A stretch of 64,000 nt of DNA from an uncultured bacterium (lineage in GTDB: Bacteria; Verrucomicrobiota; Kiritimatiellia; RFP12; UBA3636). The notes under the pieces are model-generated. The model made no database searches. It had not been told where the DNA came from and saw only the letters and a list, made by a program, of their open reading frames with translations. Below, piece by piece: positions 16,237 through 49,067 of the stretch; position 1 is the stretch's first letter, and each line of letters begins with the position of its first letter. The stretch spans positions 22,435-86,434 of the forward strand of contig CACWKU010000001.1 in the NCBI GenBank assembly GCA_902761575.1. Reading direction: 5' to 3'. The translations under genes were made by a program, and so were the position numbers.

Positions 16237-17158
16237 CCCGAAGCGGGAACCCGGCCGACTCGCGCAGGAGCGCGGTGATGCGCGCGGAGACGGCGTCCTC
16301 CGGCGCGCGGAGGCGCAGGACGCGCGCGTTGCCCGCCGGATCGGGCGCGAAGGGCGTGGAGAGGTCCGGCGCCACGCGGACGCGCCCCGGCTCGCCAAGC
16401 CCGTAGCACTCGTTCTCGCCGTGGACCGCGAGGTCGACGGTGACCGGGTCCCAGCTCGGGCGCGTCATCCCGGGGCCGCAGTAGCGCCGGAACGCCTCGG
16501 CGAGCGGATGCGCGGCGCAGTCCGGCGGCAGGCCGGAGAGGTCGGTGACCACCTTCTCGCCGCTCTCGAACCCGACGAAGACGATCGGGCCGTCCCACGC
16601 GTCGAGGAAGCGGCGCGTGGCCTCCGGGCGTTCGCGGACGTTGGTCTCCGCGTAGCCCGCGCACCGTCCGAAGCCGCCCGCCATCGCCCAGACGGCGCGC
16701 ACCTTGCGTCGGAAGAGCGCGGGGTCCTCCGCGAGGACCTCGTCGAGCGTGTTGAAGAAGCCGATCGAGATCACGTCGACGGAGCCGTCCGCCGCCTCCG
16801 CGAAGACGCGGCGGTAGAGCTCGCGCGCGGCGCACGACGTGGCGGGGTGCGCACCCCGCCACAATGCCGCGAGCGCGGCGAGATACGGGGACTCGTTGCC
16901 GCTCGGCGGAGGCGGGTCGTCCGTGACGCCGACGGGGACGTCCTGCAGGCCCCACGCGGCGAGGACCGCCTTCACCGCGGGCGCGGCGAGCGGCGTCTCG
17001 ACGTTGCACGAGACGCCGCCGATGCGGAACGCGCCGGCGTGGCGGCGCGACTCGGCGCAAAGCAGCGCGAGCGCGGCGACGTCGTCGACGTCGCCGCAGA
17101 AGTCCGTCTCGAGAACGACGGTCGCGCCCGTGCGGGCGGCGAGGGGCTCGGGCGTCAT
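16226..17158 (-). CDS. Inosine-uridine-preferring nucleoside hydrolase (IUNH)-like protein (310 aa)
   Basis: C-terminal part of track ORF 16226..19435, trimmed to the ATG at 17158. That ATG overlaps the upstream stop as ATGA. The N-terminal Asp cluster VVLETDFCGDVDDVAAL is IUNH-like. No signal peptide. Contains the 24-nt palindrome at 16839-16862. Its 3' end overlaps the convergent gene 14533..16236 by 11 nt. Confidence 0.75.
   Translation of the reverse strand: MTPEPLAARTGATVVLETDFCGDVDDVAALALLCAESRRHAGAFRIGGVSCNVETPLAAPAVKAVLAAWGLQDVPVGVTDDPPPPSGNESPYLAALAALWRGAHPATSCAARELYRRVFAEAADGSVDVISIGFFNTLDEVLAEDPALFRRKVRAVWAMAGGFGRCAGYAETNVRERPEATRRFLDAWDGPIVFVGFESGEKVVTDLSGLPPDCAAHPLAEAFRRYCGPGMTRPSWDPVTVDLAVHGENECYGLGEPGRVRVAPDLSTPFAPDPAGNARVLRLRAPEDAVSARITALLRESAGFPLRATC
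16839..16862. repeat. Perfect 24-nt palindrome GTGGCGGGGTGCGCACCCCGCCAC inside the nucleoside-hydrolase-like CDS
   Basis: Read directly from the sequence. It encodes ..LWRGAHPATS.. in the gene frame. Confidence 0.9.
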
Positions 17159-19524
17159 CGCAGAACCAGGATGGTCGGGGGGTCGCCGTAGTGTTCGAAG
17201 CACCCGACGTCGGGGCCGCCGCCGAAGTCGCGTGGCCGCTTGCCGAGGAAGTCGCGCGCGCCGGCCATCCAGTCGCAGAGAACGCCGGCATCCCTCAGCG
17301 GCGACTTCGCGCGGGGAGACCAGTCTCCCTTGTCCGGCTTCGCGAAACGGACGCCCCTTTCGTCGCAGGCCGCCGTGATCCGCGCGGACGCGCCCGACGG
17401 ATCGCGCGCGAGGACCTCCGCGACGGCGTTGGCGCTTCCGCCCTCGACGACCGTGCTCGCGATCCGGACCACGTTGGTCAGGGACGGGCAGTTGTCGACG
17501 GGGGACTCGCACCAGTAGAGGCCGGGCGCGCCCCTGTACTTCCGGCCCCAGGGCCAGCCGTCGGTCTTCGGGAGGTTGTCCCAGAACACGCAGTTGGTGA
17601 TCGCGGGGACCGACGAGTCGTTCTGGAAGTAGACGAGGCCTCCGACGTTGCGGACGAAGGTGCAGTTCGCGAGGGCGGGGAAGCTGCCCAGCTTGAACGG
17701 GCACCGGTTGTCGACGAAGAGCGTGCTGGTGATCTTGGCGACGGACGCGTCCGGCGACCGGAAGAAGGACGGCAGTTGGCTTCCGCTCGACGAGGTGTTG
17801 ATCGTCGTCGCGGTGTCCGAAACCACGCATCGGTCGAGCCGGGCGCGGCCGTAGAAGAGCCCGGCGTTCGAGGAATCGAGCACGTTGCCGGCGATCGTGC
17901 AGGCAACGAGGCGGACGGCTCCGTTCGGGCAGTCGCCGTTGTTGGAGCCGAACGTCATTCCGGCCAGCCCGCCGCCGTCCGAGCGGAGCGTCTGGTTCCG
18001 GAAGACGCAGTTCGTAACGGTCGTGTGGCTCGTCGCGGCGACGGATGTCTGCCCCCGGCTGGCGGTCCGCTCGACGTAGCAGGCGTCGAACGCCGAATTC
18101 TCGATCCAGAGCGAACCGTAGATCGCGCCGCCTGCGTTCCACATATCGGTCCAGGACGTTCCGCACCGGACGAACTCGCATCCGTCGACGATGCCGTATT
18201 CGGACCGCGCGTCGAAGTCCGTGTGCGTTTCGTCGGGGGCGTAGATCGCGCCGCCGAAGCGCGCCGTGCAGTCGACGAAATCGCAGTCGCGGATGGTCGC
18301 CGTGTTGACCGCCGCCGAACCGTCGAGCCGGATCGCGCCGCCCTTGTCCGAGCTGCCGTTCTTGAAGGTGACGCCCCGGACGGTGAAGCCGGACGCGGAC
18401 ACCCGGAGCAGGTTGGCGGACGAATCGCCGTCGAGGATCGTCTTGCCCTTGCCCTCGCGCGAGACGACCGTCAGGTTCGCCGCGGTGACGTCGATCGCCG
18501 ACGTCGCCGTGTAGATGCCGCGGTTCACGACGACCGTCGCGCCGTTGGTCGCGCCCTCGATCTCCGCCTTGAGCCGGGCGAAGTCCCCGACCGTCGCGAA
18601 GATCTCGAAGGAAACGCCCGCCGGCAGAGAGGTCTTGCCCTTGTCGCTTTCGATCGTGACCGTGCAGACGTAGTCGCCGTCGGCGAGGTTCGGGATGGCG
18701 AACTCGGCCGTCTCGCCGGTCTGGTCGCGGAGGACAGTCACCGGATCGCCGCCGTTCAGGCTGTACGAGACGGAATACTTCGTCGCGGGGTTCCCGTCCA
18801 CGTCCGTGCCCATCCCGACGTCCGCGAGCGCGATGGTCGCCGTCCGGCGGAGCGTGGAGGCGGACAGGGAGCCGATCGTCGGATGGGAGCCCGAGATGAT
18901 CTTGCGGACCTGGACCGCGTTGAAGAAGGCGGGTGCGCCCTCGTATTCGAACGTGAACGACTCGGTCCCGTTCTCGGCCGTGAACGTTCCGACGAGGGAG
19001 CCTCCGTACTGGAAGAAATAGCCTTGCGGCCGGGCGGAACACGAATGGTCCGGAGCCCAGACTTCGGTGCCGGCGGCGCCGGTGTTGGAGACGTCCGTGC
19101 AGTGGAGAATCAACTGCACGGCGTAGGTGGCTCCCGGCGTGAGCTTCTTGAGCTGAAGTTCGTGGTCGCCGACGCTCGACCACCATCCGTGCGACAGCAG
19201 GTTGGAGTAGGCGCCCGAAACACCCGGGGGAGGGACGTTCTCGTCCCCGTGCCAATGCCACTCGCCCGAAAAGCCGAAATCGGGGCATCCGGCGACGTCC
19301 TGCCGCCCGACGAACGGAACGCCGTTGACCGCGTTGGTGACGGCGGCGCCGCCGTTCGCCTGGCACCAGGCGTACGCAAGCGTTCCGTTCGTGATGATCG
19401 AATTGCCGGACTGGCTCATCGTGACCTCCTGCCACGTGACGTACGTCGCGGCGCCGGCGACGGGAACGAACAGAGATCCCGAGAGGATGGCGATCAAAAG
19501 TGTCAGAAGGGTCTTGGATTTCAT
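17155..19524 (-). CDS. Secreted right-handed beta-helix (pectate-lyase-fold) protein with an N-terminal 'QVR' module and an Ig-like repeat (789 aa)
   Basis: Track ORF 17155..20343 trimmed to the ATG at 19524 (MKSKTLLTLLIAILSGSLFVPVAGA signal peptide). The module ends FFNAVQVRKI. Parallel beta-helix style repeats are present (..VRGVTFKNG.., ..IRDCDFVDC.., ..VTNCVFRN.., ..ITNCVFWDN..). The C-terminus ..DVGCFEH.. resembles the repeat ends in 27174..33467. Confidence 0.85.
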   Translation of the reverse strand: MKSKTLLTLLIAILSGSLFVPVAGAATYVTWQEVTMSQSGNSIITNGTLAYAWCQANGGAAVTNAVNGVPFVGRQDVAGCPDFGFSGEWHWHGDENVPPPGVSGAYSNLLSHGWWSSVGDHELQLKKLTPGATYAVQLILHCTDVSNTGAAGTEVWAPDHSCSARPQGYFFQYGGSLVGTFTAENGTESFTFEYEGAPAFFNAVQVRKIISGSHPTIGSLSASTLRRTATIALADVGMGTDVDGNPATKYSVSYSLNGGDPVTVLRDQTGETAEFAIPNLADGDYVCTVTIESDKGKTSLPAGVSFEIFATVGDFARLKAEIEGATNGATVVVNRGIYTATSAIDVTAANLTVVSREGKGKTILDGDSSANLLRVSASGFTVRGVTFKNGSSDKGGAIRLDGSAAVNTATIRDCDFVDCTARFGGAIYAPDETHTDFDARSEYGIVDGCEFVRCGTSWTDMWNAGGAIYGSLWIENSAFDACYVERTASRGQTSVAATSHTTVTNCVFRNQTLRSDGGGLAGMTFGSNNGDCPNGAVRLVACTIAGNVLDSSNAGLFYGRARLDRCVVSDTATTINTSSSGSQLPSFFRSPDASVAKITSTLFVDNRCPFKLGSFPALANCTFVRNVGGLVYFQNDSSVPAITNCVFWDNLPKTDGWPWGRKYRGAPGLYWCESPVDNCPSLTNVVRIASTVVEGGSANAVAEVLARDPSGASARITAACDERGVRFAKPDKGDWSPRAKSPLRDAGVLCDWMAGARDFLGKRPRDFGGGPDVGCFEHYGDPPTILVLR

Positions 19525-19694: not shown

Positions 19695-21764
19695 CTACTT
19701 GACGATGATGATCGTGCCAAGGACCGGGCCGAACGTGTATTTCCCGTTGCCCTTCGCGGCGAAGCTCCAAAGCCCCGACCCGGGCGGCACGTCGCCCTCG
19801 AACGCCAGCCGGGGCGTGCCGTCCACGCGACTGGCCGTGAACGCCGTGACGGCGGGGTTGTGCGAATACGTCGCCAGGTTCTCCGGATCCGTGATCGTGA
19901 ACGTCGCGCCGGGCGCGAACGTGAGTCCGGCGGGGAAATCCGCGTACCGGCCCGCGAACAGGTCCGCGCACGAGGCGCGCAGGGAGTTCGTCACCGTGAC
20001 CGCGATGTTGGTGGCCCCTGCCGGGTCCGTCACGGCGCCCGCGCCCGCGAACGAGGAGAGAACGATCGAGTCGGCGCCCTCCGGGAGCCGCAGCGTCGCG
20101 CCGTACTCCACGCGCACGGACGTGTTGCTCGGCACGACGCCGTCCGTCTCGGCATGGAGCGTCCCCGACTCGACCGCTATGCCGTAAAACGTGTTGGTGG
20201 CATAGAGGAAGAGATCGTGAGTCCCGCGCTTCACCAGTTCGCCGCCCAGCCCCGCGTTGTCGGAGAGCGTGAGCGCGCATTCGTAGCGCGTAGCGCGGTT
20301 GTAGCTCTCCACATACGCCTTCGCGTTGTCGCTGTAGTCGCATCCGCGCGAGGTGACAACGACCCGCGAATGCGTCTTCGTTTCGTAGTCGTATTCGACG
20401 TAGGCGCTCGCGCCCCAGCCGGTCTCGTCCTCGAACACGATGCGCGCGGGGCCGAAATATGGCTCCGTCGTGTAGTCCCCCTCGGTCGGCAGAGCGACGG
20501 ACGCGACGCCCTTTCCCGTCGGCGCGGCAAACGAAAAAGGCATATGACTCACGGGGTTGTTTCCGGTCAATTCCGACGTGTCGATGACGAGGCCTTTCTT
20601 CCAGACGACGAAATGGCTGGGATTGCCCTTGTAGAAGTCCGCATGAGTCGGCCCAACCCCCGTCCAGTCGCTCGCCATCGTCGGCATCAGCGTTCCGCCG
20701 TCGGCGTTGACGGTAATGAGCGAAGCCGCGCCGGCAGCCCGGTGCTTGAAGAAACGCGCGGCCTTTACCGTCGCGCCGTCCTTCACGTTGAACACGTTTG
20801 TGGAAATCGTTCCGTTCCCGCCGCCAAACCGAAGCGTCTCGGTCGTAAGCAGCGTCCCCTCGCCCGACACCGTGACGTCGGAACAGCCACCGTAATCGCT
20901 AAGAAGAAAGCGCTGGGTCTGTCCGCCTTGCGTAACGCACGTGTCGTTCGTGCCGCCGGCCAGGTGGAACACGGCCGTTCCGGCGCGACTGGCGTGCACG
21001 GCGCTCTTGCTCCCGCCCTCCAGTTTGAAGAGCCCGCCCGTCTGGATAAAGCTGCCAAAACTGCCGGCGGTATGCGCGACATGGACGTTGTTGCTCACGT
21101 ACGCTTCGCCGCCCGACATGGCCCAGTGCCCTATGTCCGTGGCATTCATGCCGACTGCCGTTTCACCCTTCGCGACAAGGATGCCGCCCGTCTGGTGGAA
21201 CACGCCATAGCCGTCGTTTCCAACGCGAACCTTGTTGAGAAGCGTGTGCCCGTCGCCCATCAGAGACCGGCTTCCGCCTTTCACGATGAACCAATCGCGG
21301 AACACGCGCGATGCCGTGCTGATCATTTGCATAAGACCTTGGTCGATTTGCACACCGCACGCGAGGTCGACATTGCCGTTTAGGTACAGTACGCCCGTCC
21401 CCCTCTTGCGGAACAAGATGTCCGACGTGGTGGTCGAGCCGCGGGTCAAGGTTCCGTTGAGACGCAATTCGTTTGATCCGGCGGTTTCGATGTAGAGAGC
21501 GCCTTCCTCGATCACCACGTCGCCCGAATACTCCGTCGTCGTCGTCCGCAGCACCACCGTTCCGGCACCCCTCTTCACGACCCGCGAGAAACCGTCAATC
21601 GCCGCAACGACCGTATACTCTTCGCCGGCGTCGGCCGTCACGACGTAGTCCGTACCTTCCGCACCCTCGCTGCCGGCCCGCGCCGAGAGCGGGGCGAACA
21701 ACGTGCACGATGCGATGGTCGCCGCGAGGGTGGCGGCGGCGTTTCTCCTTGCGATGCATTTCAT
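19695..21764 (-). CDS. Secreted protein with autotransporter-associated beta-strand-type repeats, and no translocator barrel in the ORF (689 aa)
   Basis: Track ORF. Signal peptide MKCIARRNAAATLAATIASCTLFAPLSARA. Repeated G-rich beta-strand segments (..KRGAGTVVL.., ..GALYIE.., ..GGTL..). Noticeably lower GC than its neighbours. Ends ..GPVLGTIIIVK. Confidence 0.75.
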   Translation of the reverse strand: MKCIARRNAAATLAATIASCTLFAPLSARAGSEGAEGTDYVVTADAGEEYTVVAAIDGFSRVVKRGAGTVVLRTTTTEYSGDVVIEEGALYIETAGSNELRLNGTLTRGSTTTSDILFRKRGTGVLYLNGNVDLACGVQIDQGLMQMISTASRVFRDWFIVKGGSRSLMGDGHTLLNKVRVGNDGYGVFHQTGGILVAKGETAVGMNATDIGHWAMSGGEAYVSNNVHVAHTAGSFGSFIQTGGLFKLEGGSKSAVHASRAGTAVFHLAGGTNDTCVTQGGQTQRFLLSDYGGCSDVTVSGEGTLLTTETLRFGGGNGTISTNVFNVKDGATVKAARFFKHRAAGAASLITVNADGGTLMPTMASDWTGVGPTHADFYKGNPSHFVVWKKGLVIDTSELTGNNPVSHMPFSFAAPTGKGVASVALPTEGDYTTEPYFGPARIVFEDETGWGASAYVEYDYETKTHSRVVVTSRGCDYSDNAKAYVESYNRATRYECALTLSDNAGLGGELVKRGTHDLFLYATNTFYGIAVESGTLHAETDGVVPSNTSVRVEYGATLRLPEGADSIVLSSFAGAGAVTDPAGATNIAVTVTNSLRASCADLFAGRYADFPAGLTFAPGATFTITDPENLATYSHNPAVTAFTASRVDGTPRLAFEGDVPPGSGLWSFAAKGNGKYTFGPVLGTIIIVK

Positions 21765-27173: not shown

Positions 27174-30100
27174 CTATTCCGGCATGCGCACCCAGACCCG
27201 GAAGAAGCGGCTGTCGGCGTTCGGCGCGGTCCAGACCTCGTTCGTGAGGAAGGGCTTGCCCTCTATGGTGTAGACGCGCTTGGCGCCGAGGTCCGGATGC
27301 CAGGAGATCTCCGGCTCGTCGCCGGGCACGAGGATGTCCGCGAGGAAGCGCGAGAGCGCATCGAGCGGGTTCAGGCCCGCGACGAACTCCTCCCAGAGCG
27401 TGTCGCCCTTGCCCGACGGCAGCGGCTTCAGCGCCTCGTAGCCGCTGGTCGACCCGATGCCGTGGAAGTCGATCCACGCCTCCCATTCGCCCTTCGTCGC
27501 CTCCGGAATCCACTGCACGCAGTCGAGGAAGCCGCGGTCTTCGCCGTCGGCCATTCCGGAGTCCTTCGCGTAGGTCCAGCGCAGCGTGTGCGCCCCCTCC
27601 CCCTCGACGGCGAACGACGCCCGCTCCCACTTCGTCCGCCCGTCGAGACGCGCCTTCTCGACGCCGTCGACGAGAAACGCAAGGTGGTCCCAGTCGCGAT
27701 AGCCGCTGTCGTCGCGCTCGCACGAGGCGCGCCAGCGGAAATCGATCTGTCCCGGTCCTTCGACCGTCGTCTCGATCCAGCTTTCGCCGTTGTCGCCGGG
27801 CGACGCGGAGGTCGCGCGGTGGACGCCGTCCGCCGAGTCCTCGGTCGCCTCGGGAACCCACGGATCGTCGTCCCCGGTCGTGAAGGCGAGCTGCGGCATG
27901 TTGACCGCCGTCGCGAGCCCGAGCGTCGAGCCGAGCGCCGGAACGCCCGCCCCCGAACGGCCCGCGAGGTTCTCCGAGACAACGAAGTAGTAGTAGGTCT
28001 TCCCGGGCTCGACCGTCACGTCGGTCCACGAAAGGCCCTCCGTCGTCCCGAGCTCCTCCGCCGCCGCGAGGTCGGGCGACGTCCCGCGGCAGACGCGGTA
28101 GGAGTCCGCCGTCTCCACGGCGTCCCACGAGAGCGCGATGCCCGCGCCTTCCTGCGCCGCCGCGAGGCCGTCCGGCGCCTGCGCCACGTAGACATGGACG
28201 ATCGTCGCGGTCGCGACCTCGCTCGCCCAATCGCCGCGCACCACGGCGATCGCCTTCACCGTCGTCGTCTCAAGGATCGAAAACTTGACGGAAGTCGCGC
28301 TGTTCGTCGCCGGGTCGGAACCGTCCACCGTGTGGTAGATCTTCGCGTCCGGATCGGTGCACGTGAGCATCACCGACTGCGAGTTCTTGTTCGCGAACTG
28401 CGTTCCGTCCGGCGGATCGATGACGGGCGTCGCCGGTACGCCGTATTCGTAGCAGCCCATGTCCACCGCCGCGTGCGCGACGCGCGGATTGCCGGCGAGG
28501 TCCGTCTTCCCCGCCGCCCACGACGTGTCGCCCGCGTCGACGCACGGCGCCACCGCGCGCACGCGGTAGTCGCCGTTCGCCGCGTCGAAGAAGAGGTCCG
28601 CCGCCGACGCGACGATATTGCTAGTCCCGACGGTTTCCGTGTCGAGGCAGGAATAGTCGACGTTGCACGTCGCGGCATGGACTTCGGTTCCGACCGGTAC
28701 ATTCTCGACGAAATTGCCGACAATGACGCAGTTTGTCGCGACGCATTTTCCGATGGCGCATGCCCCCAGACTAATGGCGTTCGTATTCGCGGCAACGGTG
28801 CAGTTCGCAAGCGAACATTTGTAGGCGGCACTGGGTGCACAACCGCTGTGATCGTCGTTCCAGACGACATTGCCGGCAATCAGGCAGTTCTCCATGTCGG
28901 CTTCGTACGCCGCGCCCCATTTCCGGCTGACATTACCGGTCAAAATGCAGTTCTTCAATGTCGCAGTCAGAACGGCCGACCCCCCACCCGAACAGTATCC
29001 ATTACGGAACATGAATCCTTCCATTGTCACGAGCCCGCGGAGGGTTTCGTAGTAATAGGCGCTCGGATCCGTCGGCTGATACGCCGCCATCTGGATACAG
29101 CGCCGGAGCCCTTGACCGTCGATGATCGTCGTCGCGGGACCGTTTGCGCTTCGAATGCGCAGGTGTGCGCTTTTCCAGTTCACGATGGAACTGGAAGCCT
29201 GCGCATCGCCCGTATAGACGCCGTCCGCCACGACGATTTCGTCGCCGTCCGCCGCCCAGTCGATGGCATTCTGGATGGTCGCCTTCGCCGTTTCCCAGGA
29301 GAGGCCGTCGTTCGCATCGTCGCCCGTCGCCTGCGCGACGTATTGCGTCGCCGCCGCGTAGTGGGTGGCCCATTCGTAGCAACCCATGTCGGTCCCGACG
29401 CCGATCCACCGCGAGTGGCCATCGAGGTCGGTTCCAAGCTTGGCCTCGGTTGTCAGTCCGCCCGCGTCGATGCACGGCGAGCCCGCCGTGAGCCGGTAGT
29501 CGCCGTTCGCCGCGTCGACGAAGAGCGGATCGGCGTCGATGTTGCCCGAGCCGGAGACGGCCGAACCGAAGCAGGAATAGGTCGCGGTGGAATTGTAGAT
29601 ATCGTTTGCGGCTCCGCTCGTGTAGGCGTTTCCGTAGACGATGCAGGATTCGAGCGTGCAGAAGTCGCAACCGCCGCCGCCGGGCTTGCTGGAAGAACCG
29701 TAGACGGCCCGGTTGTCCACAATCGTGCACCGGACCGCATCGCAGCTGCCAAGTCCGCCGCCCGTCGTGGCGGCGACGATGTTGTTCGCCAGATTGTCCG
29801 CAATCAAGCAATCTTCCAGCCGGGAATTCATGGCGCCGCCCCCGCCGGCGGACGAAACGTTGTTGGAAACGATGCATCGAAAGGCAATGCTGCATTGAAG
29901 TCCCCCGCCGTAGCCGCGGAACGAAGGGTCGTCGTCTTTCCCGGCGTAGTTCCCCGTCACGATGCACGCTTCCAGAATTCCGCCGCGAACGCCGGCTCCG
30001 TGGTCGTTCCGGCCGTTCCGCAACGTAAAGCCGACAAGCGTCGTTTTCACGGCATCGGTCCTTTCGGCACCTAGCGTCGCGCAGCGGTTCGTGCCGCCGC

Positions 30101-33100
30101 CGTCGACGATGGTCTTCTCCGCGCCTTCGACGCTGCGGATGACGATGTCCTTGTTCCTTGCGACGAACGGTTCGTAGACGCCGTTCGTGACGAGGACCGT
30201 GTTGCCCGCGACGGTGCGGTCCGCCGCGTTCTGGATCGTCCGCAGCGCGTCGTCCCACGAACGCCCCGTGTTCTCGTCATCGCCGCGTTCCGCGTCGACG
30301 TACCAGACCGTTTCCGCGGGTTCCGGATCTTCGCAGACAAGACGGAAGCCGACGTCGCTGTATTTGGTAGAAGCGCCGTCTTGGATGCGAAAGGCCGAAC
30401 GGCAACGATTGGCCGCGAACTTCCATCCGCCGCCGCGCCTCGAACGATGCGTTCCGGAACCGGCCCCCGCGGGATTGACCGCGGGTCCGCCGTCCAATTC
30501 GGCATACCAGTCGAGGCACCATTCGTAAACGTTGCCGTGCATGTCGAAAAGGCCCCATCGGTTCGGAAGATAGGACCCGACCGCTGCATGGTGGTCGTTC
30601 CCCCGGTTGTCGACGTATCGTCCGAGTTCCGCCAGATTGGCGCTGTAGCCCTCCGCTGATTCCAGATTCTTTCCAGAGTTCAAGGAGGATTCTGTCCCCG
30701 CGCGGCAGGCATATTCCCACTGCGCTTCGGTCGGGAGGTCGAAGCCGTCCAGGCCCGTCTTCGCGCGGAGGACGCCGAGGAAGCTCGAAGCGTCCACGGC
30801 GCTGCTCGCCGGGAAGTTCGTTCCCGCGTCGTCGCCGCGGATCATGTCGTAGGAAACCGTCTCGATCGGGTGGGTTCCTCCGAGATTCTGCGCCACGTTC
30901 GTTCCCATCACGAGTTCCCATTGCTTCTGCGTCACCTCGAAAACGCCGGCGTAGAAGCCGCGCGAGAGCGTGACGCGGTGGAGCGTCTCGTTGTCCTGAC
31001 GGCCTAGCTCGTCCTCCGGGCTGCCCATCCAGAACGAGCCCTCCGGCACATTGCGGAGGACGAGTTTCGTCGTCTTGTATTCCTCGGTCCAGCCGCCCGC
31101 GGGAACGTCGGAGAGGTAGGAGACCGGATAGGAGGTCGCGTTCGTTCCACCCGAGAGGTCGACGACGAGGAAGCGGGTCTCGTCGACCGGATCGATGCCG
31201 AACGGATAGACGAACGTGCCCTCGTAGTTGTTCTTGCCGGTCACGCGGACGCCCGCCGTGCCGACGTCCACGTTGTCGACGTATTCGACGTCGTAGTTCT
31301 CCGCGCCGAGGATGTCCGGCCAGCCGTCGCGGATGTGGACCTCGGGCGTCTTCGGCGTTCCGTCCCACACCTGGTCCGGAACGACGCACATCATCGAGGG
31401 GTCGATCCGCTTCTTCCGGACGGTGAGCGTCGCGGCGTTCGTGACGGCGGGATAGCCCGGCGCCGTCGCGACGACCCAGACCGGATGCTCGCCCGCGTCC
31501 GTGAACGACGGCGCCTCCGCCGTGAACGGGCCTTCCGCGGAAAGACCGTAGAGAATCGTCGCCTCCGCGCCGGGGAAGTCCGCCGTCACGGAGAGCGCGT
31601 TCGGGCCGCCGTTGTAGACGACATCCGTCCCCTCGACCTTGAGCCACGACTCCGGTCCCGCCTCGTAGGCGCCGATGTCCACGTGCGCGCCCTGCACGCG
31701 CGCGTTGCCCCAGAGGTCGGAGTCGCTCACCGCGTTCGCGTCGCTTCCCGCGTCGATGCAGGGCGACGAACCGAGCAGGCGGAAGTCGCCGGCAGCCTCG
31801 TCCGCGAACTTCGGGAACGCGACGATGTTCCCTTCGCCCTCCTTCAGCGACGTGAGGCAGCAGTGGTCGAGCGTGCACGCCGCCACGTCCGCTGCGATGC
31901 CGCCCACCGTGTTCCCCGTCACGATGCAGTTGTAGACCTTGCAGTCGTAGAGCCCTCCGGCGGGAGCCCCGGCAACGGCCTCGTTCCCGATGACCGTGCA
32001 GTTATAGAGGTCGCACTGGTAGGCACCTCCCGCGGCGGCGGTTCCGTCGGACGACAAAGACGCGTTTCCGAGAATCAGGCAGTTTACGAGTTTACAGCCG
32101 CCCGCGCCGCCGACCGTTTTCTCCGCATTCAGGCATTTCGTGGTCGTGCAATCCTGGATGACGCAGTTTTCCACGATACCGTGCGAAACTCCTCCTAGGT
32201 TCGTGAACAAGCCGTTTGTAATCGTAAAACCGACGAGCGTCGCAACGCGATCCGCCGTCCTTCCGTCGAGAGAAGCCGAAAGTTTTGCGCAACGGTATTT
32301 GCCTTCTCCGTCGAGAATCGTCTTTTCCGGTCCGTTCACACTTTTGATCAGGAGCTTGCCGCTGGTAGCATGGCAGTCGAGAACCATGTTTCCCGAGACC
32401 CTTTTGTATGTTCCGTCGTTCACGAGAACCGTGTCCCCGTCGATCGCCTCGTCCACCGTGGATTGGATGGACTTCTTCGCCGCGCTCCAGGAGAGACCGT
32501 CGTTCGAGTCGTTTCCGGAGGCGGCGTCCACGTGCCACGTCACGGGTTCACGGTATTCGTAGCAGCCGGCGTCCACGATTCCGTTCACGATGCGCCGACT
32601 TCCGCGAAGATCGTAATTCGTCGGAACCAATTCGTTCGTACCCGCGTCGACGCACGGCGATTCCGGGCGGAGACGGTAGACGCCGGCCGCGGCGTCGACG
32701 AACGGCGATTCGGAAAGGACGCCGTTGTTCGAGCCAGGAAGAACAACTTCGGCAAACGAGTTTGTGGCGGAAAAACTGGAGGAAACAAGCGATGCGGATC
32801 CTGTTTCGTTGCCGAACACGACGCAGTTGGCCAGGACGGAATCCGAAAACACGGCGCCAGATCCGTCAAAACCGCCATTGTTCGAAAACGTGCAATTGAA
32901 AGCGGTCGAATTCCGGACGAGGCATTGCAAAGCCCTGTTTCCGACGACCAGGCAATTGTCCATTCGGACTGTGTGGAGGACGACTTTGGAGTTCAAAGAC
33001 GTTCCCTTCACAATGCACTTCCTCAGTTTGGTCCAAGCTACTCCTCCGGTGTCTTGATGCAATCCGTTCTGCAACGTGAATCCGTCGAAAAGCAGGCAAT

Positions 33101-33467
33101 GGTCCATCCAGTCATTTTGATGGGCCGTGTTCGTTCCCTTGGCGACGCGGCGCTGACCATCGGCGTCGATGATCGTGACGAGAGGGCCGTCCGTGCTGCG
33201 GACCGTAGCAGAACGCCCATTGGAATTATAGACGGCACCAACGGAGTCCGCCGTCTCCTTGTAGGTTCCCGGGCCGACGAGGATCAAGTCGCCGTCGGAG
33301 CAGGAAGTCACCGCCTTTTGGATCGTTTTGAAGGGCTTTGCGGAAGTGCCTTCGTTCGAGTCGGAACCCGAAGAGGCGGAAACGTACCAGTTCTTCGCGA
33401 ACCCGGAGGGCGCGAAACCGGCGAGAAGAAGAAGGAACGAGACTGCGGGGAGGCGCGAGCGGAGCAT
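27174..33467 (-). CDS. Giant secreted protein (2097 aa): several parallel beta-helix units, an embedded FGE-sulfatase (SUMF1-type) domain, a chitobiase-C-like domain, an FN3-like domain, and a C-terminal 'FFR' tail
   Basis: Track ORF. Signal peptide MLRSRLPAVSFLLLLAGFAPSGFA. Beta-helix units each end ..SPC(I/V)DAG..D(A/I/M)G(C/A)YE(Y/A/W). FGE-sulfatase motifs: HRVTLSRGFYAGVFEVTQKQW, WEYACRAG, DMHGNVYEWCLDWY, RGGGW. The tail is ..WEEFVAGLNPLDALSRF..RFFRVWVRMPE. The 5' third (about 32000-33400) is visibly less GC-rich. Confidence 0.9.
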   Translation of the reverse strand: MLRSRLPAVSFLLLLAGFAPSGFAKNWYVSASSGSDSNEGTSAKPFKTIQKAVTSCSDGDLILVGPGTYKETADSVGAVYNSNGRSATVRSTDGPLVTIIDADGQRRVAKGTNTAHQNDWMDHCLLFDGFTLQNGLHQDTGGVAWTKLRKCIVKGTSLNSKVVLHTVRMDNCLVVGNRALQCLVRNSTAFNCTFSNNGGFDGSGAVFSDSVLANCVVFGNETGSASLVSSSFSATNSFAEVVLPGSNNGVLSESPFVDAAAGVYRLRPESPCVDAGTNELVPTNYDLRGSRRIVNGIVDAGCYEYREPVTWHVDAASGNDSNDGLSWSAAKKSIQSTVDEAIDGDTVLVNDGTYKRVSGNMVLDCHATSGKLLIKSVNGPEKTILDGEGKYRCAKLSASLDGRTADRVATLVGFTITNGLFTNLGGVSHGIVENCVIQDCTTTKCLNAEKTVGGAGGCKLVNCLILGNASLSSDGTAAAGGAYQCDLYNCTVIGNEAVAGAPAGGLYDCKVYNCIVTGNTVGGIAADVAACTLDHCCLTSLKEGEGNIVAFPKFADEAAGDFRLLGSSPCIDAGSDANAVSDSDLWGNARVQGAHVDIGAYEAGPESWLKVEGTDVVYNGGPNALSVTADFPGAEATILYGLSAEGPFTAEAPSFTDAGEHPVWVVATAPGYPAVTNAATLTVRKKRIDPSMMCVVPDQVWDGTPKTPEVHIRDGWPDILGAENYDVEYVDNVDVGTAGVRVTGKNNYEGTFVYPFGIDPVDETRFLVVDLSGGTNATSYPVSYLSDVPAGGWTEEYKTTKLVLRNVPEGSFWMGSPEDELGRQDNETLHRVTLSRGFYAGVFEVTQKQWELVMGTNVAQNLGGTHPIETVSYDMIRGDDAGTNFPASSAVDASSFLGVLRAKTGLDGFDLPTEAQWEYACRAGTESSLNSGKNLESAEGYSANLAELGRYVDNRGNDHHAAVGSYLPNRWGLFDMHGNVYEWCLDWYAELDGGPAVNPAGAGSGTHRSRRGGGWKFAANRCRSAFRIQDGASTKYSDVGFRLVCEDPEPAETVWYVDAERGDDENTGRSWDDALRTIQNAADRTVAGNTVLVTNGVYEPFVARNKDIVIRSVEGAEKTIVDGGGTNRCATLGAERTDAVKTTLVGFTLRNGRNDHGAGVRGGILEACIVTGNYAGKDDDPSFRGYGGGLQCSIAFRCIVSNNVSSAGGGGAMNSRLEDCLIADNLANNIVAATTGGGLGSCDAVRCTIVDNRAVYGSSSKPGGGGCDFCTLESCIVYGNAYTSGAANDIYNSTATYSCFGSAVSGSGNIDADPLFVDAANGDYRLTAGSPCIDAGGLTTEAKLGTDLDGHSRWIGVGTDMGCYEWATHYAAATQYVAQATGDDANDGLSWETAKATIQNAIDWAADGDEIVVADGVYTGDAQASSSIVNWKSAHLRIRSANGPATTIIDGQGLRRCIQMAAYQPTDPSAYYYETLRGLVTMEGFMFRNGYCSGGGSAVLTATLKNCILTGNVSRKWGAAYEADMENCLIAGNVVWNDDHSGCAPSAAYKCSLANCTVAANTNAISLGACAIGKCVATNCVIVGNFVENVPVGTEVHAATCNVDYSCLDTETVGTSNIVASAADLFFDAANGDYRVRAVAPCVDAGDTSWAAGKTDLAGNPRVAHAAVDMGCYEYGVPATPVIDPPDGTQFANKNSQSVMLTCTDPDAKIYHTVDGSDPATNSATSVKFSILETTTVKAIAVVRGDWASEVATATIVHVYVAQAPDGLAAAQEGAGIALSWDAVETADSYRVCRGTSPDLAAAEELGTTEGLSWTDVTVEPGKTYYYFVVSENLAGRSGAGVPALGSTLGLATAVNMPQLAFTTGDDDPWVPEATEDSADGVHRATSASPGDNGESWIETTVEGPGQIDFRWRASCERDDSGYRDWDHLAFLVDGVEKARLDGRTKWERASFAVEGEGAHTLRWTYAKDSGMADGEDRGFLDCVQWIPEATKGEWEAWIDFHGIGSTSGYEALKPLPSGKGDTLWEEFVAGLNPLDALSRFLADILVPGDEPEISWHPDLGAKRVYTIEGKPFLTNEVWTAPNADSRFFRVWVRMPE

Positions 33468-33603
33468 GGCGGAATCCTTGCCCCGGGGTGTAGAGCCGAA
33501 GGCGGGTTCGGGGCGAAAGAGCCTACCTTCGGTGTCTGCCGTCCGTATGAAACGGCAGGTGCCGAGGCGGGGATGTTTGCCCCGTCACGGCGCGACGGGG
33601 CGT

Positions 33604-33632
33604 AGGATACCAGAACCGCCCCATGAATACAA
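33604..33632 (-). promoter_or_regulatory. Sigma70-like promoter for the giant gene 27174..33467
   Basis: Sense strand: TTGTAT (33632-33627), 17 nt, TATCCT (33609-33604). Predicts a ~130-nt structured leader. Confidence 0.35.
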
Positions 33633-33681
33633 GCGCAGTTTGCGGCAAAGCGGGCGCGCGCGAAGGTCCTGGCGGAGCCCG

Positions 33682-33990
33682 CTAGTCCGCGAGCCATTCA
33701 TGGGCCGGGACGACGCGGATGGCTCGGCCGTCCTCGCGGGCGAAGTCGCGCTGCCTCAGCGTGACGATCGTCCCTTCGCGCAGGCCGAACTGCCGCAGGG
33801 CGCCGAGAATCCCGGCCAGTTCGCGCTCGCGGTTCTCGGACACAAGCTCGTAGCAGACCTGCTCCGCGGAGAACGCGCCGGAGGCGTCGGCGAAGACGAA
33901 GTCGCACTCGGAGGCGTCGTCCGCCCAGTAGAAGCGCCGCGCGCTCCGGCGGCGGATCCGCGCCCAGGCGCAACGGAGACGACCATTATT
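33682..33990 (-). pseudogene. Remnant (C-terminal ~100 codons) of a DUF4143-type AAA+ ATPase gene
   Basis: Frame open from the TAA at 33993-33991 to the TAG at 33684-33682, with no Met. Hand translation: ..RRFYWADDASECDFVFADASG..QVCYELVSENRERELAGILGALRQFGLREGTIVTLRQRDFAREDGRAIRVVPAHEWLAD*. This matches the usual C-terminal style of AAA_14/DUF4143 proteins (YWR..E(V/C)DFV .. I.V(I/V)P...WL). It is preceded by an AT-rich patch at 33985-34040. Track ORF 33698..33973 is a different, nonsense frame. Confidence 0.55.
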
Positions 33991-34096
33991 TTACCACGAT
34001 TGCAATATTTTTTTTCTATTGTTGAAATATCTGCCGCGCGTCCAGTTGCTTTCCGAATCAAGGGCGAATCGGACGCGAAGGGCGCGAGGGCGCGTC

Positions 34097-35737: not shown

Positions 35738-36388
35738 TTACTTGACGGTAATGACCGCCGGCTTCCCCGCCGGTTCGTCCGACGGAAGCTCGCGCACCTG
35801 GATGGCGTTGATCAAAGCCTGGCCGCTGTACGAGATCGTGAACTCCTCCGTCGTGGCTTCGGCGGTGAACTGGCAGATCAGCGAACCGCCGTATTCCCAT
35901 CCGGTTCCGGCGAACTTGGCAACCGTCGTTCGGTCCGGCGCGGTCGCCGACTGCGTCGTGTAGTCGTTGCGGAAGGCGACCATCTGGACCAGATACCGCT
36001 TCCCGGATTCCAGATTCTTCAACGCGATCGGCCGGTCCTTGCCGTTTGCCCACCAGCCATTCGACAGCAGATCCTTGTAATCGCCCGACTCGGTGTCGGA
36101 GGGAGGCGACGAAACGGCGTTGCCGGCTCCGCCCGAGGCTTCCCAGACGACGCAGTCCGCCGTATTGACGATTTTGTCGCCGACACCGGCGAACGAAACG
36201 CCGTTGACCGTGTAGTTTCCGCGGGCGTAGGCGTACTTGAGCGTTCCGTCCGTGCGGATCGACGTGCTGCTCGCCGTCAGTGGCGTAGCAGACCACGTGA
36301 CGTCCGTTGCCGCCCCGGCGGGGGCGGCGACGAGCGCGGCGGCGGCCGCGAGGGCGAGGGCGGCGGTTTTCCTGACGATGCGATTCAT
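35738..36388 (-). CDS. Free-standing secreted 'QVR' module protein (216 aa)
   Basis: C-terminal part of track ORF 35738..40231, trimmed to the ATG at 36388 (MNRIVRKTAALALAAAAALVAAPAGA signal peptide). The whole mature protein is one copy of the recurrent module (..SSTSIRTDGTLKYAYARGNYTVNGVSF..GKRYLVQMVAF..LINAIQVRELPS). Confidence 0.85.
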   Translation of the reverse strand: MNRIVRKTAALALAAAAALVAAPAGAATDVTWSATPLTASSTSIRTDGTLKYAYARGNYTVNGVSFAGVGDKIVNTADCVVWEASGGAGNAVSSPPSDTESGDYKDLLSNGWWANGKDRPIALKNLESGKRYLVQMVAFRNDYTTQSATAPDRTTVAKFAGTGWEYGGSLICQFTAEATTEEFTISYSGQALINAIQVRELPSDEPAGKPAVITVK

Positions 36389-48943: not shown

Positions 48944-49027
48944 AACAAACTCCCGAGTGTTTATTCAACAAACTCCCGAACGATTCTTCAACAAACTCCC
49001 GGACGAAATTTCAACAAACTCCCGAAC
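48944..49027 (+). repeat. Four direct repeats of CAACAAACTCCCGR (iteron/operator-like), period 22-23 bp, ending 3 nt before the -35 of the ATPase promoter
   Basis: Repeat starts at 48944, 48966, 48989 and 49012. The 14-nt core is identical except for R. The spacers are AT-rich and not conserved. Confidence 0.8.
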
Positions 49028-49030
49028 AAC

Positions 49031-49059: not shown

Positions 49060-49067
49060 TCGCCACC

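What the first reader, a model, noticed from the sequence alone, without database searches (positions are those of the whole stretch)
27174..33467. 2097-aa beta-helix giant with an internal FGE-sulfatase domain and a compositionally distinct 5' third
At least four parallel beta-helix units, each closing with SPC(I/V)DAG...D.G.YE., are interrupted by a complete FGE-sulfatase/SUMF1-type domain (about 30400-31200). They are followed by chitobiase-C-like and FN3-like domains, a large beta-sandwich and the FFR tail. FGE-sulfatase-fold domains in such contexts are usually not formylglycine generators. They are often binding or other-activity modules, and their role on a surface adhesin/enzyme is unclear. 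The first ~1.3 kb of the gene (about 32100-33400) is visibly less GC-rich than the rest, which suggests mosaic origin. The gene uses a plain sigma70-like promoter rather than the cassette.
Basis: partly seen in the sequence, partly recalled or inferred. Interest (0 to 1): 0.55.

Follow-up and report, generated by a model that had tools for sequence, protein, structure and literature searches.

The report
Mosaic giant beta-helix surface protein
This is a 2097-residue secreted protein of an uncultured rumen bacterium, assembled from swappable beta-helix modules around a non-enzymatic lectin-fold ("FGE-like") binding domain; its low-GC 5' third is a recently exchanged DNA segment, so the gene is a real recombination mosaic, though of a broadly familiar kind.

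Summary
ORF 27174-33467 (-) encodes a 2097-aa secreted protein. Its parts are four beta-helix units ending in choice-of-anchor-Q motifs, a complete FGE-sulfatase-fold domain (aa 807-1044), CHB_HEX_C, a jelly-roll sandwich and a conserved C-terminal tail.

The FGE-like domain is not a formylglycine generator. The Cys336 equivalent is Phe, and the Cys341 equivalent is not conserved among orthologs. Its closest solved relative is TvpA, the ligand-binding variable protein of a diversity-generating retroelement (DGR). A 56%-identical Pontiellaceae homolog is a real DGR target, but about 74 kb around this gene holds no template repeat or reverse transcriptase.

The compositional anomaly is real and wider than reported. 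GC3 is below 0.78 in 16 of 40 windows of this gene, against 4 of 249 windows in neighbouring genes.

The low-GC 5' 1.4 kb is about 99.2% identical to gene copies at a different chromosomal locus. Those copies are otherwise 46-96% identical. At the window's own locus, other strains carry a 1371-aa protein with another passenger but the same promoter, signal peptide and C-terminus.

The gene is therefore a recombinant hybrid in a fast-shuffling surface-protein family. Its biochemical function is inferred as glycan or ligand binding and is untested. Interest is moderate.

The parts
27174..33467 (-). Whole ORF, 2097 aa plus stop codon
33396..33467 (-). Sec-type signal peptide (aa 1-24, MLRSRLPAVSFLLLLAGFAPSGFA|K). 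It has no lipobox Cys.
   Evidence: Read from the translation. A related peptide, partly diverged (DNA of this stretch about 85% identical), is found in alleles at both loci.
32553..33395 (-). Beta-helix unit 1 (aa 25-305): DUF1565/Pel9A-type N-cap, then a choice-of-anchor-Q end (SPCVDAG at aa 270, DAGCYEY at aa 299)
31656..32552 (-). Beta-helix unit 2 (aa 306-604)
32064..33618 (-). Recently exchanged tract. It comprises the shared promoter and leader start (33560-33618), the leader end, and codons 1-~468. From nt -50 to +1405 it is about 99.2% identical to the locus-B alleles P0003 and P0006, and its GC3 is 0.62-0.82.
31173..31655 (-). Two Ig-like/MBG-like linker domains (aa 605-765). GC3 is about 0.9 and the segment is 88-96% conserved among alleles.
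   Evidence: and the sequence pattern. The Pfam MBG_3 match is only E 1.7, so the assignment is tentative.
30324..31172 (-). C-type-lectin fold domain of the FGE subtype, with its conserved N-terminal extension (aa 766-1048). The Pfam FGE-sulfatase match is aa 807-1044.
30333..30455 (-). Stretch equivalent to a DGR variable region (aa 1005-1045, GTHRSRRGGGWKFAANRCRSAFRIQDGASTKYSDVGFRLVC). It is the most divergent part of the domain among alleles.
29367..30311 (-). Beta-helix unit 3 (aa 1053-1366). Within it, nt 3441-3850 (window 29617-30026) is about 99% identical to allele P0002 only.
28440..29366 (-). Beta-helix unit 4 (aa 1367-1675). Its core is only 46-60% identical to any allele, with GC3 0.65-0.75.
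28428..28595 (-). Choice-of-anchor-Q end of unit 4. It is an intragenic DNA repeat (71-84% identical to 32538-32702 and 29459-29525). It is also the right-hand joint (~28592) where homology to the alternative locus-A allele P0011 resumes.
28200..28388 (-). CHB_HEX_C_1/Fn3_assoc domain (aa 1694-1756)
27918..28190 (-). Fn3-like stretch (aa ~1760-1850). Identified by sequence pattern only.
   Evidence: There is no Pfam hit.
27498..27917 (-). Jelly-roll beta-sandwich resembling VesC C-domain, MAM domains and CBMs (aa ~1851-1990)
27177..27497 (-). Conserved C-terminal tail domain (aa 1991-2097, ...WEEFVAGLNPLD...RFFRVWVRMPE)

Best explanation
The gene encodes a giant, Sec-exported, probably cell-surface protein of an uncultured ruminant-gut bacterium of the Planctomycetes-Verrucomicrobia-Chlamydiae (PVC) group, most likely Kiritimatiellae. 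It has a constant 'stalk and anchor': CHB_HEX_C, an Fn3-like stretch, a jelly-roll domain and a ~110-aa C-terminal tail. This carries a variable 'passenger' of four beta-helix modules, two on each side of a non-catalytic C-type-lectin-fold (FGE-subtype) domain.

The lectin-fold domain most likely works as a ligand- or glycan-binding module, like its closest solved relative, the DGR variable protein TvpA. It is not a sulfatase-maturing enzyme.

Diversity in this family arises by homologous recombination or gene conversion, not by retrohoming. Exchange occurs between alleles and between two chromosomal loci. Several joints lie at the DNA repeats that encode the conserved choice-of-anchor-Q ends and caps of the helices.

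The window's copy is itself a hybrid. Its promoter, leader, signal peptide and C-terminus belong to locus A. A locus-B-type passenger (aa ~25-1625) has been spliced in at about window 28592. The 5' 1.4 kb is the most recently shared piece.

The exchanged passenger segments have GC3 of 0.5-0.8 in a genome whose genes run at about 0.93. They therefore most likely come from a gene pool of lower-GC relatives.

Shown: the architecture, the loss of the catalytic Cys, the mosaic tracts, the two loci and the composition pattern. Inferred: surface location, binding function, the selective reason for variation and the donor pool.
For: Architecture.

Non-catalytic lectin-fold domain:
- PDB sequence search gives TvpA (2y3c) E 6e-24, PvdO 3e-21 and human FGE 2e-19. 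In the alignment, F1017 sits at Cys336.
- In a 17-sequence family alignment, the Cys336 position is variable in every member and the Cys341 position lacks Cys in 5 of 17.
- The AlphaFold model has pLDDT 86, and its best Foldseek hit is 2y3c at E 3e-19.
- The literature states that TvpA has the FGE-subtype fold, lacks formylglycine-generating activity and is thought to bind ligands (PMC5758913, PMC6328139).

Mosaicism against alleles P0003 and P0006:
- aa 1-440: nucleotide identity 98-100%, synonymous differences 0-0.07.
- aa 450-720: 88-96%.
- C-half of the FGE domain: 55-80%.
- Helix-3 and helix-4 cores: 45-62%.
- C-terminus: 80-93%.
- The change-point lies at nt 1321-1406.

Mosaicism against P0002: 7 differences up to nt 829, divergent from nt 912 (the helix 1/2 junction), and a second about 99%-identical tract at nt 3441-3850.

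Two loci:
- The window and L090/L091/L092 share flanks at 92-97% identity. L090-92 carry the 1371-aa P0011, which has another passenger.
- P0002, P0003 and P0006 lie between fabF and a Wzy_C-like/DAC cluster.
- Over aa 1650-1750 the window protein is 94-95% identical to P0011 but 83-87% identical to the locus-B alleles. This supports a hybrid origin.

Composition:
- Searches give the window gene against its neighbours.
- All four alleles have low GC3 in their variable modules even though the sequences differ.
- The unrelated passenger of P0011 also has low GC3, while its C-terminus is 0.9 or higher.
- The closest species-representative genomes carrying the lectin-fold module have locus GC of 0.52-0.58.

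Context: neighbouring genes encode secreted carbohydrate esterases, an ulvan-lyase-like protein, and melibiase-like and GH3 proteins.
Against: - No experiment or proteomic data shows export, surface anchoring or binding.
- The helix bodies have no detectable relative of known activity. Only the ~60-aa N-cap matches PL9 rhamnogalacturonan lyase and similar proteins. Enzymatic roles are therefore not excluded.
- No donor for the 5' module was found outside the family. The best outside hit is 53% identical, so the 'lower-GC donor pool' is inferred from composition only.
- It is unknown whether loci A and B coexist in one genome (paralogs) or represent a translocation between strains.
- Several breakpoints lie inside helices, not at module junctions.
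- The taxonomic assignment rests on the names of distant homologs.
Confidence: 0.6

Rival explanations
1. The internal lectin-fold domain is an active target of a DGR located elsewhere in the genome. Its hypervariable C-terminal stretch would be rewritten by adenine mutagenesis from a remote template repeat.
For: - The closest solved structure is the DGR variable protein TvpA.
- A 56%-identical homolog with the same N-terminal extension in a Pontiellaceae metagenome-assembled genome (MAG), L011, is a textbook DGR target. Its variable region is at 1361-1498 and its template repeat at 3090-3227. 27 mismatches separate them, 93% at template adenines, and a reverse transcriptase ORF lies at 2084-3388.
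- The equivalent stretch is the most divergent part of the domain among alleles.
- Remote DGR targets more than 100 kb away are documented (PMC5758913).
Against: - No repeat of window 30250-30800 exists in the window or in the ~10 kb beyond it.
- No reverse transcriptase was found among 20 window genes or the extension.
- Alleles differ here by indels and by many synonymous changes. This is not the pattern of changes confined to template-adenine positions.
- P0003 and P0006, from different samples, are identical in this stretch although they differ elsewhere.
- Identical protein was recovered from at least 3 assemblies.
- The domain is internal, whereas variable regions normally lie at the C-terminus of the protein.
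Confidence: 0.08
2. The domain is a working formylglycine-generating enzyme that matures sulfatases, as some pipelines name its orthologs.
For: - There is a full-length Pfam FGE-sulfatase match at E 3e-35.
- JGI labels an orthologous cluster member 'formylglycine-generating enzyme required for sulfatase activity'.
- From general knowledge, Kiritimatiellae are sulfatase-rich.
Against: - The Cys336 equivalent is Phe. The Cys341 equivalent is not conserved, and this position lies in the most variable stretch of the domain.
- The domain sits inside an exported 2097-aa protein.
- From general knowledge, FGE is an O2- and copper-dependent oxidase, while the habitat (rumen) is anoxic.
- Scores are far below all NCBIfam equivalog cutoffs.
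Confidence: 0.02
3. The protein is mainly a multi-catalytic polysaccharide-degrading enzyme. Its beta-helix units would be lyases or hydrolases, with the lectin-fold and jelly-roll domains acting as substrate-binding modules.
For: - The gene cluster is rich in secreted carbohydrate esterases and also encodes an ulvan-lyase-like, a melibiase-like and a GH3 protein.
- The helix N-caps match PL9 rhamnogalacturonan lyase at E 1.6e-5 and Pel9A-like and Chondroitinase B profiles weakly.
- The jelly-roll resembles CBMs, and a CHB_HEX_C domain is present.
Against: - Matches cover only the ~60-aa cap and fall below Pfam cutoffs (24.4 against 25.2 bits; 20.5 against 24).
- The helix bodies have no PDB or family match.
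- Helix cores are only 45-60% conserved between alleles, which is unusual for active sites.
- This reading is compatible with, rather than exclusive of, the mosaic-surface-protein explanation.
Confidence: 0.25
4. The compositional and identity mosaic is an assembly artefact, that is, a chimeric metagenome contig joining reads of different strains or species.
For: - All sequences come from short-read metagenome assemblies.
- Repeated motif DNA inside the gene could mislead assemblers.
Against: - The identical 2097-aa protein was assembled on 4 contigs in at least 3 assemblies made with different assemblers, on contigs of up to 92 kb.
- The same low-GC3 pattern recurs in independent alleles.
- The reading frame is intact across all joints.
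- The repeats are short (70-170 bp) and only 71-84% identical.
Confidence: 0.03

Closest known systems
TvpA, Treponema denticola variable protein 1 (PDB 2y3c), the FGE-subtype C-type-lectin-fold target of a DGR
   Same: It is the best sequence hit (E 6e-24) and the best fold hit (E 3e-19) for aa 755-1052. It has the same fold subtype and lacks formylglycine-generating chemistry. The stretch equivalent to its variable region is the most variable part here too (PMC5758913).
   Different: TvpA is a single-domain lipoprotein whose variable region lies at the protein's C-terminus and is rewritten from a template repeat. Here the domain is embedded in the middle of a 2097-aa protein. No template repeat or reverse transcriptase lies within about 74 kb, and allelic differences include indels and synonymous changes.
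Pontiellaceae MAG DGR target (locus L011, ORF 230-1501)
   Same: It is 56% identical over the whole lectin-fold domain, including the 'YLVVDLSGG...YPVS.L..VP.GGWT' N-terminal extension.
   Different: It is a 423-aa protein with a C-terminal variable region, an adjacent reverse transcriptase and an adenine-biased template repeat. The window gene has none of these.
Human/bacterial formylglycine-generating enzyme (SUMF1; PDB 1y1e, 5ssy, 6muj)
   Same: It has the same fold (Foldseek E about 1e-14, 21-24% identity) and the same Pfam family, PF03781.
   Different: The catalytic, copper-binding Cys pair is not conserved. The domain here is exported and internal to a giant protein.
PvdO (PDB 5hha) and PorK/GldK (PDB 9mzu): other non-FGE members of the fold
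   Same: Matches are significant: PvdO E 3e-21 with TM 0.68-0.77, and PorK E 1e-11.
   Different: NCBIfam scores are far below the equivalog cutoffs: PvdO 99 against 500 bits and GldK 74 against 350 bits. There is no pyoverdine or type IX secretion (T9SS) context.
Choice-of-anchor Q domain proteins (NCBIfam NF041518) and DUF1565/Pel9A-capped right-handed beta-helix proteins
   Same: There are four above-threshold choice_anch_Q matches, and DUF1565-type caps open the helix units, scored by Pfam/PDB for unit 1.
   Different: The family is defined by sequence only and has no established function. Here four units are arranged around a lectin-fold domain and are exchanged as cassettes.
Recombination-driven mosaic surface proteins (general knowledge, not tested here; for example gene-conversion systems of pathogens and mosaic adhesins of gut bacteria)
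   Same: Conserved ends flank variable cassettes. Identity changes sharply along the gene, alternative alleles occupy one locus, and copies lie at a second locus.
   Different: No silent-cassette array or dedicated recombinase was seen. The exchanged segments are compositionally foreign (GC3 0.5-0.8 against 0.93). The organism is an uncultured rumen PVC bacterium.

Membership tests
Formylglycine-generating enzyme (SUMF1/FGE) | FGE-sulfatase (C-type-lectin subtype) fold | tested here: met
   PF03781 matches at E 3.3e-35 over profile positions 8-254 of 255. Foldseek to human FGE gives E about 1e-14.
Formylglycine-generating enzyme (SUMF1/FGE) | Conserved catalytic, copper-binding Cys pair (human C336 and C341) | tested here: not met
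   F1017 aligns with C336. C1022 aligns with C341, but Cys is missing there in 5 of 17 family members, and the C336 column is variable throughout.
Formylglycine-generating enzyme (SUMF1/FGE) | Formylglycine-generating activity on sulfatase motifs | not testable with these tools
   This needs an in-vitro assay.
DGR variable protein (CLec/FGE subtype, TvpA-like) | C-type-lectin fold with a solvent-exposed variable stretch at the end of the domain | tested here: met
   The best PDB hit by both sequence and fold is 2y3c. The last ~40 residues of the domain are the least conserved.
DGR variable protein (CLec/FGE subtype, TvpA-like) | Cognate template repeat differing from the variable region essentially only at adenines | tested here: not met
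   No second copy of 30250-30800 exists in the 64-kb window or in the ~10 kb beyond its end. The same screen did detect true template/variable repeat pairs in L011 and L060. The rest of the genome could not be searched.
DGR variable protein (CLec/FGE subtype, TvpA-like) | DGR reverse transcriptase (and accessory gene) in the vicinity | tested here: not met
   Pfam scans of 20 window genes and the precomputed Pfam calls for the extension show no RVT domain. The YxDD motif scan found only an AP_endonuc_2 protein.
DGR variable protein (CLec/FGE subtype, TvpA-like) | Variation among copies confined to template-adenine codon positions, with no indels | tested here: not met
   Alleles differ by indels and have synonymous difference rates of 0.4-0.67 in this stretch. 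P0003 and P0006 are identical here.
Choice-of-anchor Q domain protein (NF041518) | Match to the domain model above the curated cutoff | tested here: met
   113.6 bits against a cutoff of 25, in 4 stretches. The motif positions are aa 270, 568, 1330 and 1640.
Polysaccharide lyase-type beta-helix (PL9/Pel9A, chondroitinase B) | Homology across the catalytic helix body, above family thresholds | tested here: not met
   Pel9A-like scores 24.4 bits (cutoff 25.2) and covers profile positions 8-63 only. Chondroitinase B scores 20.5 (cutoff 24). PDB hits are confined to the first ~60 residues of the unit.
PorK/GldK T9SS lipoprotein; PvdO; EgtB | Score at or above the NCBIfam equivalog cutoff | tested here: not met
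   GldK scores 74 against 350, PvdO 99 against 500, and EgtB 25 against 360.
Unnamed C-terminal tail-domain family of PVC giant proteins (profile A3) | ~110-aa domain with invariant G, P, P, R, G, L, W, F and V, ending ...RFF(K/R)V.V.(M/L)P at the extreme C-terminus | tested here: met
   The target matches the profile at aa 1990-2096, E 4.5e-37. The profile finds 3791 cluster representatives, and about 144 of the best 150 end at the protein's C-terminus. No Pfam or NCBIfam model covers it.

The most novel reading that the evidence does not exclude
Loci A and B form a cassette-exchange system for surface variation in rumen Kiritimatiellae. A constant promoter, leader and signal peptide, together with a constant stalk and tail, frame a passenger that is repeatedly replaced. 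The replacements are beta-helix and lectin-fold cassettes drawn from an inter-species, lower-GC pool, joined at the repeated choice-of-anchor-Q and cap sequences. The internal TvpA-like domain would be a domesticated ex-DGR binding module, or possibly one still served by a remote DGR. The unannotated C-terminal tail would be the sorting signal of a PVC-specific export or anchoring pathway.
Probability: 0.25. Interest if true: 0.6.

Novelty: new variant of a known kind. Interest (0 to 1): 0.4.

Why it matters
Ruminant-gut Kiritimatiellae are abundant but uncultured, and none of their giant secreted proteins has been characterised.

This case corrects a misleading automatic label. Orthologs are called 'formylglycine-generating enzyme', but the domain is a non-catalytic lectin-fold binding module.

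It also documents, with nucleotide-level breakpoints, that these proteins evolve by swapping whole modules between alleles and between two loci. The swapped parts are marked by foreign base composition. That gives a concrete handle for studying strain-level surface variation in the rumen, whether it reflects phage or protist pressure or substrate specificity.

The work also shows a DGR-type binding fold reused without its retroelement. Finally, it flags a large unannotated C-terminal domain family that may be a sorting signal.

None of this overturns current concepts. It is a well-supported but moderate finding.

Tried and rejected
1. I searched for a DGR template repeat. Permissive blastn of 30250-30800 against the window, and of 30300-30480 against the contig extension, gave chance-level hits only. 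A self-repeat screen with an adenine-bias filter across 87 loci found real DGRs only in L011 and L060, plus an ambiguous pair in L043.

2. I searched for a reverse transcriptase using Pfam on 20 window genes, the called genes of L088, and a YxDD motif scan. None was found.

3. I searched for a donor of the low-GC 5' module. A protein search with aa 1-470 found nothing closer than 53% outside the family; the 99% hit is a fragment of the same gene. tblastn of each module against 80 genome loci found only the lectin-fold module widely.

4. I looked for catalytic homology in the helix units. PDB sequence searches with units 1 and 3 matched only the N-cap.

5. I tested the 176-nt leader insert present in other alleles as a possible riboswitch. 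Rfam gave nothing meaningful.

6. Many window genes share an ATTTACC...GGTA(G/T)AAT-like upstream arrangement. The target's upstream (CTTTGCC...TGGTATCCT) looks like a weaker version of it, so I did not treat the difference as significant.

7. I tested whether other window proteins with FFR-like endings share the tail domain. The A3 profile hits only the target.

8. The genome-contig scan was dominated by the YEWCLDWY pattern of the lectin-fold domain. It therefore did not recover the source species. Taxonomy stays at 'PVC, probably Kiritimatiellae'.

9. Literature searches for this architecture in Kiritimatiellae and for 'choice-of-anchor' found nothing relevant.

Full report
**1. Checking the observation**

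The ORF is exactly as described: 27174..33467 on the minus strand, ATG start, 2097 aa. The same protein sequence was assembled on four metagenome contigs of up to 92 kb, from at least three assemblies. Those assemblies include the series named 'STEW19'.

Pfam finds a complete FGE-sulfatase domain at aa 807-1044, with E 3.3e-35 and profile positions 8-254 of 255. This corresponds to window 30336-31049. Pfam also finds CHB_HEX_C_1/Fn3_assoc at aa 1694-1756 and DUF1565/Pel9A-type caps.

It matches four times, at 113.6 bits against a cutoff of 25. The motif cores lie at aa 270, 568, 1330 and 1640.

The N-terminus reads as a Sec signal peptide (MLRSRLPAVSFLLLLAGFAPSGFA|K) with no lipobox.

**2. Composition**

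The 5' 1.3-1.4 kb has GC 0.55-0.60, in a window that averages 0.66-0.74. This is a synonymous-site effect. GC3 is 0.62-0.77 over aa 1-450. In 249 100-codon windows of 19 other genes in the window, GC3 averages 0.93 with sd 0.06. GC3 below 0.78 occurs in 16 of 40 windows of this gene and in 4 of 249 elsewhere.

GC3 is also low across the C-half of the FGE-like domain and helix 3 (aa ~900-1260, 0.67-0.80) and in the helix-4 core (aa ~1410-1590, 0.65-0.75). It is 0.9 or higher in the Ig-like linker (aa 480-800) and in the last 500 residues.

**3. Is it a mosaic?**

A protein search found full-length relatives of 56-84% identity and 2094-2962 aa (P0002-P0009). It also found a 1371-aa family (P0011-15) that shares only the last third.

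Sliding-window comparison shows abrupt changes of identity along the gene. I fetched the DNA of three alleles and aligned them codon by codon.

- Against P0003 and P0006, nucleotide identity is 98-100% over aa 1-440, with synonymous differences of 0-0.07.
- It is 88-96% over aa 450-720.
- It is 55-80% in the C-half of the FGE-like domain.
- It is 45-62% in the cores of helices 3 and 4.
- It is 80-93% at the C-terminus.

At single-nucleotide resolution there are about 12 differences between nt -50 and +1405, then about one difference per 9 nt. This puts the change-point at window ~32062-32146, which is exactly where GC3 rises from about 0.7 to 0.9.

Against P0002, the near-identical tract ends at nt 829-912. 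This is the junction between helix 1 and helix 2. A second tract of about 99% identity spans nt 3441-3850, inside helix 3.

Synonymous sites are as conserved as non-synonymous ones in these tracts. The tracts therefore reflect recent shared ancestry through recombination, not purifying selection.

**4. Two loci and a hybrid gene**

P0011 has a different passenger. It lacks an FGE-like domain, has a single helix, and has an unrelated N-terminal ~650 aa. Yet it lies at the same chromosomal locus as the window gene (locus A). Its flanks, which include the melibiase-like gene, the 1053-aa protein, the ulvan-lyase-like gene and a PATR protein, are 92-97% identical to the window.

Fine mapping gives the following picture.
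- The promoter and the start of the leader are shared (window 33677-33553, 96.8%).
- The end of the leader and the signal peptide are shared (33537-33412, 85%).
- Homology is then lost.
- It resumes at window 28592 (aa 1625), at the start of helix 4's choice-of-anchor-Q end. This sequence is also an intragenic DNA repeat.

The three four-helix alleles P0002, P0003 and P0006 lie at a different locus (locus B), between fabF and a Wzy_C-like/DAC/ABC cluster. Their homology to the window begins at the promoter's -10 region (window 33618) and ends at the stop codon.

Over aa 1650-1750 the window protein is 94-95% identical to the locus-A protein P0011, but only 83-87% identical to the locus-B alleles.

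The window gene is therefore a hybrid. A locus-B-type passenger (aa ~25-1625) sits in a locus-A frame. Whether A and B coexist in one genome could not be determined.

**5. Composition follows variability**

In all four alleles, the helix cores and the C-half of the FGE-like domain have GC3 of 0.5-0.8, although their sequences differ strongly. The conserved scaffold has GC3 of 0.9 or higher.

The unrelated passenger of P0011 is also low in GC3 (0.53-0.88), and its C-terminus is 0.83-0.97. Other beta-helix genes in the window have normal GC3, so the effect is not intrinsic to coding a helix.

From general knowledge, GC-biased gene conversion would raise the GC of recombining DNA rather than lower it. 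The simplest reading is therefore that the passengers come from lower-GC relatives.

The species-representative genomes whose lectin-fold module is closest (55-60% identical) are ruminant-gut and other PVC-group MAGs, with locus GC of 0.52-0.58. No actual donor for the 5' module was found; the best match outside the family is 53% identical. This step remains an inference.

**6. The FGE-like domain**

Sequence search of the PDB gives Treponema denticola variable protein 1 (TvpA, 2y3c) as the best hit at E 6e-24. PvdO follows at 3e-21 and human FGE at 2e-19.

An AlphaFold model built from 17 family sequences has pLDDT 86 and pTM 0.88. Foldseek returns the same order: 2y3c at E 3e-19, then PvdO, then FGEs.

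In the HMMER alignment to human FGE, F1017 occupies the catalytic Cys336 position and C1022 occupies Cys341. In the family alignment, the first column is variable in every sequence and the second lacks Cys in 5 of 17. The domain is therefore not a formylglycine generator.

TvpA is the FGE-subtype lectin-fold target of a diversity-generating retroelement (DGR). It lacks formylglycine-generating activity and is thought to bind ligands through its C-terminal variable region (PMC5758913, PMC6328139).

I followed the DGR lead. Among 80 related genome loci, an adenine-bias screen found a textbook DGR in a Pontiellaceae MAG (L011). Its target domain is 56% identical to the window's, including the N-terminal 'LVVDLSGG...YPVS.L..VP.GGWT' extension. 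Its variable region lies at the equivalent of aa 1005-1045 here.

The window gene does not behave like a DGR target.
- There is no template copy in the window or in ~10 kb beyond it.
- There is no reverse transcriptase.
- Alleles differ by indels and by many synonymous changes in that stretch.
- Two alleles from different samples are identical there.

A remote DGR elsewhere in the genome cannot be excluded. I put that possibility at about 8%.

**7. The remaining parts**

Only the ~60-residue N-cap of helix unit 1 resembles a solved protein (PL9 rhamnogalacturonan lyase, E 1.6e-5); unit 3 gave no significant PDB hit (best E 0.4). The helix bodies match nothing, so enzymatic activity is neither supported nor excluded.

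The last ~110 residues form a domain with no Pfam or NCBIfam model. A profile of it finds 3791 cluster representatives among 1.84 billion proteins, of which 2139 have E of 1e-10 or better. In about 144 of the best 150, the domain ends at the extreme C-terminus, on proteins of 134-3304 aa. That distribution is what one expects of a sorting or anchoring signal, but the function is untested.

**8. Context and organism**

Neighbouring genes encode the following:
- secreted GDSL, BD-FAE and phytase-like esterases;
- a beta-lactamase-fold protein;
- an ulvan-lyase-like protein;
- melibiase-like and GH3 proteins;
- other large signal-peptide proteins.

Housekeeping genes follow just beyond the window. 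The locus is chromosomal.

Named distant homologs are from Kiritimatiellae and Lentisphaerae, and the closest genome loci are ruminant-gut MAGs. The species itself is not among the representative genomes.

**9. Conclusion**

The gene is a recombinant member of a fast-shuffling family of giant exported proteins. The FGE-like domain is a TvpA-like binding module used without a retroelement. The low-GC 5' third is the most recently exchanged of several compositionally foreign segments.

The biochemical function and surface location are inferred. In kind, this is a new variant of known things: modular beta-helix surface proteins, lectin-fold binding domains and recombination mosaics. Interest is moderate (0.4).

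Noticed in passing
window 27177-27497 (aa 1991-2097); profile alignment A3: The ~110-aa C-terminal tail (TPVPVP..WLD ... W(Q/E)(D/E)(F/Y)VAG..P.D ... RFF(K/R)V.V.(M/L)P) has no Pfam or NCBIfam model. Its profile finds 3791 cluster representatives, and about 144 of the best 150 end at the extreme C-terminus of proteins of 134-3304 aa. It may be an undescribed sorting or anchoring signal of PVC bacteria.
   Followed up: partly
L011 230-3388 (Pontiellaceae MAG JAOZMR010000143.1): This is a complete DGR. The target ORF is at 230-1501, the variable region at 1361-1498 and the template repeat at 3090-3227. There are 27 mismatches, 93% at template adenines. An HRDC-like accessory ORF lies at 1620-2087 and a reverse transcriptase ORF at 2084-3388. 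The next gene (3319-7155) ends with a similar RFYRVNVQFE ending (same family not tested). L060 (Phaeodactylibacter MAG) also shows one template with two variable regions (5020-5110 against 14580-14670 and 4467-4548).
   Followed up: partly
window 33682-33990 and 33971-34047: A truncated remnant of a DUF4143/AAA_14 ATPase gene lies just upstream of the giant gene's promoter. It keeps its own AT-rich upstream island (GC 0.375 or less). Strain L090 lacks window 33678-33888 of this remnant. It is a scar of earlier rearrangement at the left edge of the variable locus.
   Followed up: partly
window ~33538-33552; L004 1504-1686; L090 6027-6202: The 5' leader of the window gene lacks a segment of about 176-183 nt that is present in the leaders of the locus-B allele and of the alternative locus-A allele. 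Rfam finds no known RNA family in it. The remaining leader contains hairpins, for example ccgaagg...ccttcgg.
   Followed up: partly
window 48955-49075: Three tandem copies of TTCAACAAACTCCCG(A/G)ACG lie in an AT-rich island directly upstream of the intact DUF4143 ATPase gene (49068-50348). This gene also has lowered GC3 (0.83).
   Followed up: no
upstream of window genes 10964-12616, 17155-19524, 19695-21764, 43645-46467, 50410-53115 and others: There is a recurrent upstream arrangement: (A/T)TTTACC, then ~40-50 nt, then GGTA(G/T)AAT or TATGAT, followed by GC-rich hairpins in the leader. The target has a weaker version (CTTTGCC ... TGGTATCCT).
   Followed up: partly
window 3-3128, 10964-12616, 35738-36388: Three secreted proteins share a C-terminal region around '...NAIQVR(D/E)L...', C-terminal in two of them and internal in the cut ORF 3-3128. 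Their DNA cross-matches at 71-73% (window 148-632 against the 216-aa gene of L090/L091). Two other proteins end in ...H(H/R)F(Y/F)(R/Q)AILTR (5249-10888 and 12804-14384). These endings are not detected by the tail profile A3.
   Followed up: no
window 19695-21764 and 41317-43515: Two further secreted proteins (one with a PATR repeat, one with GLUG/M26-like motifs) also have below-average GC3, at 0.83 and 0.86. The PATR gene is only 76% identical between the window and L090, while its neighbours are 90-97%. This may be another fast-evolving surface gene.
   Followed up: no
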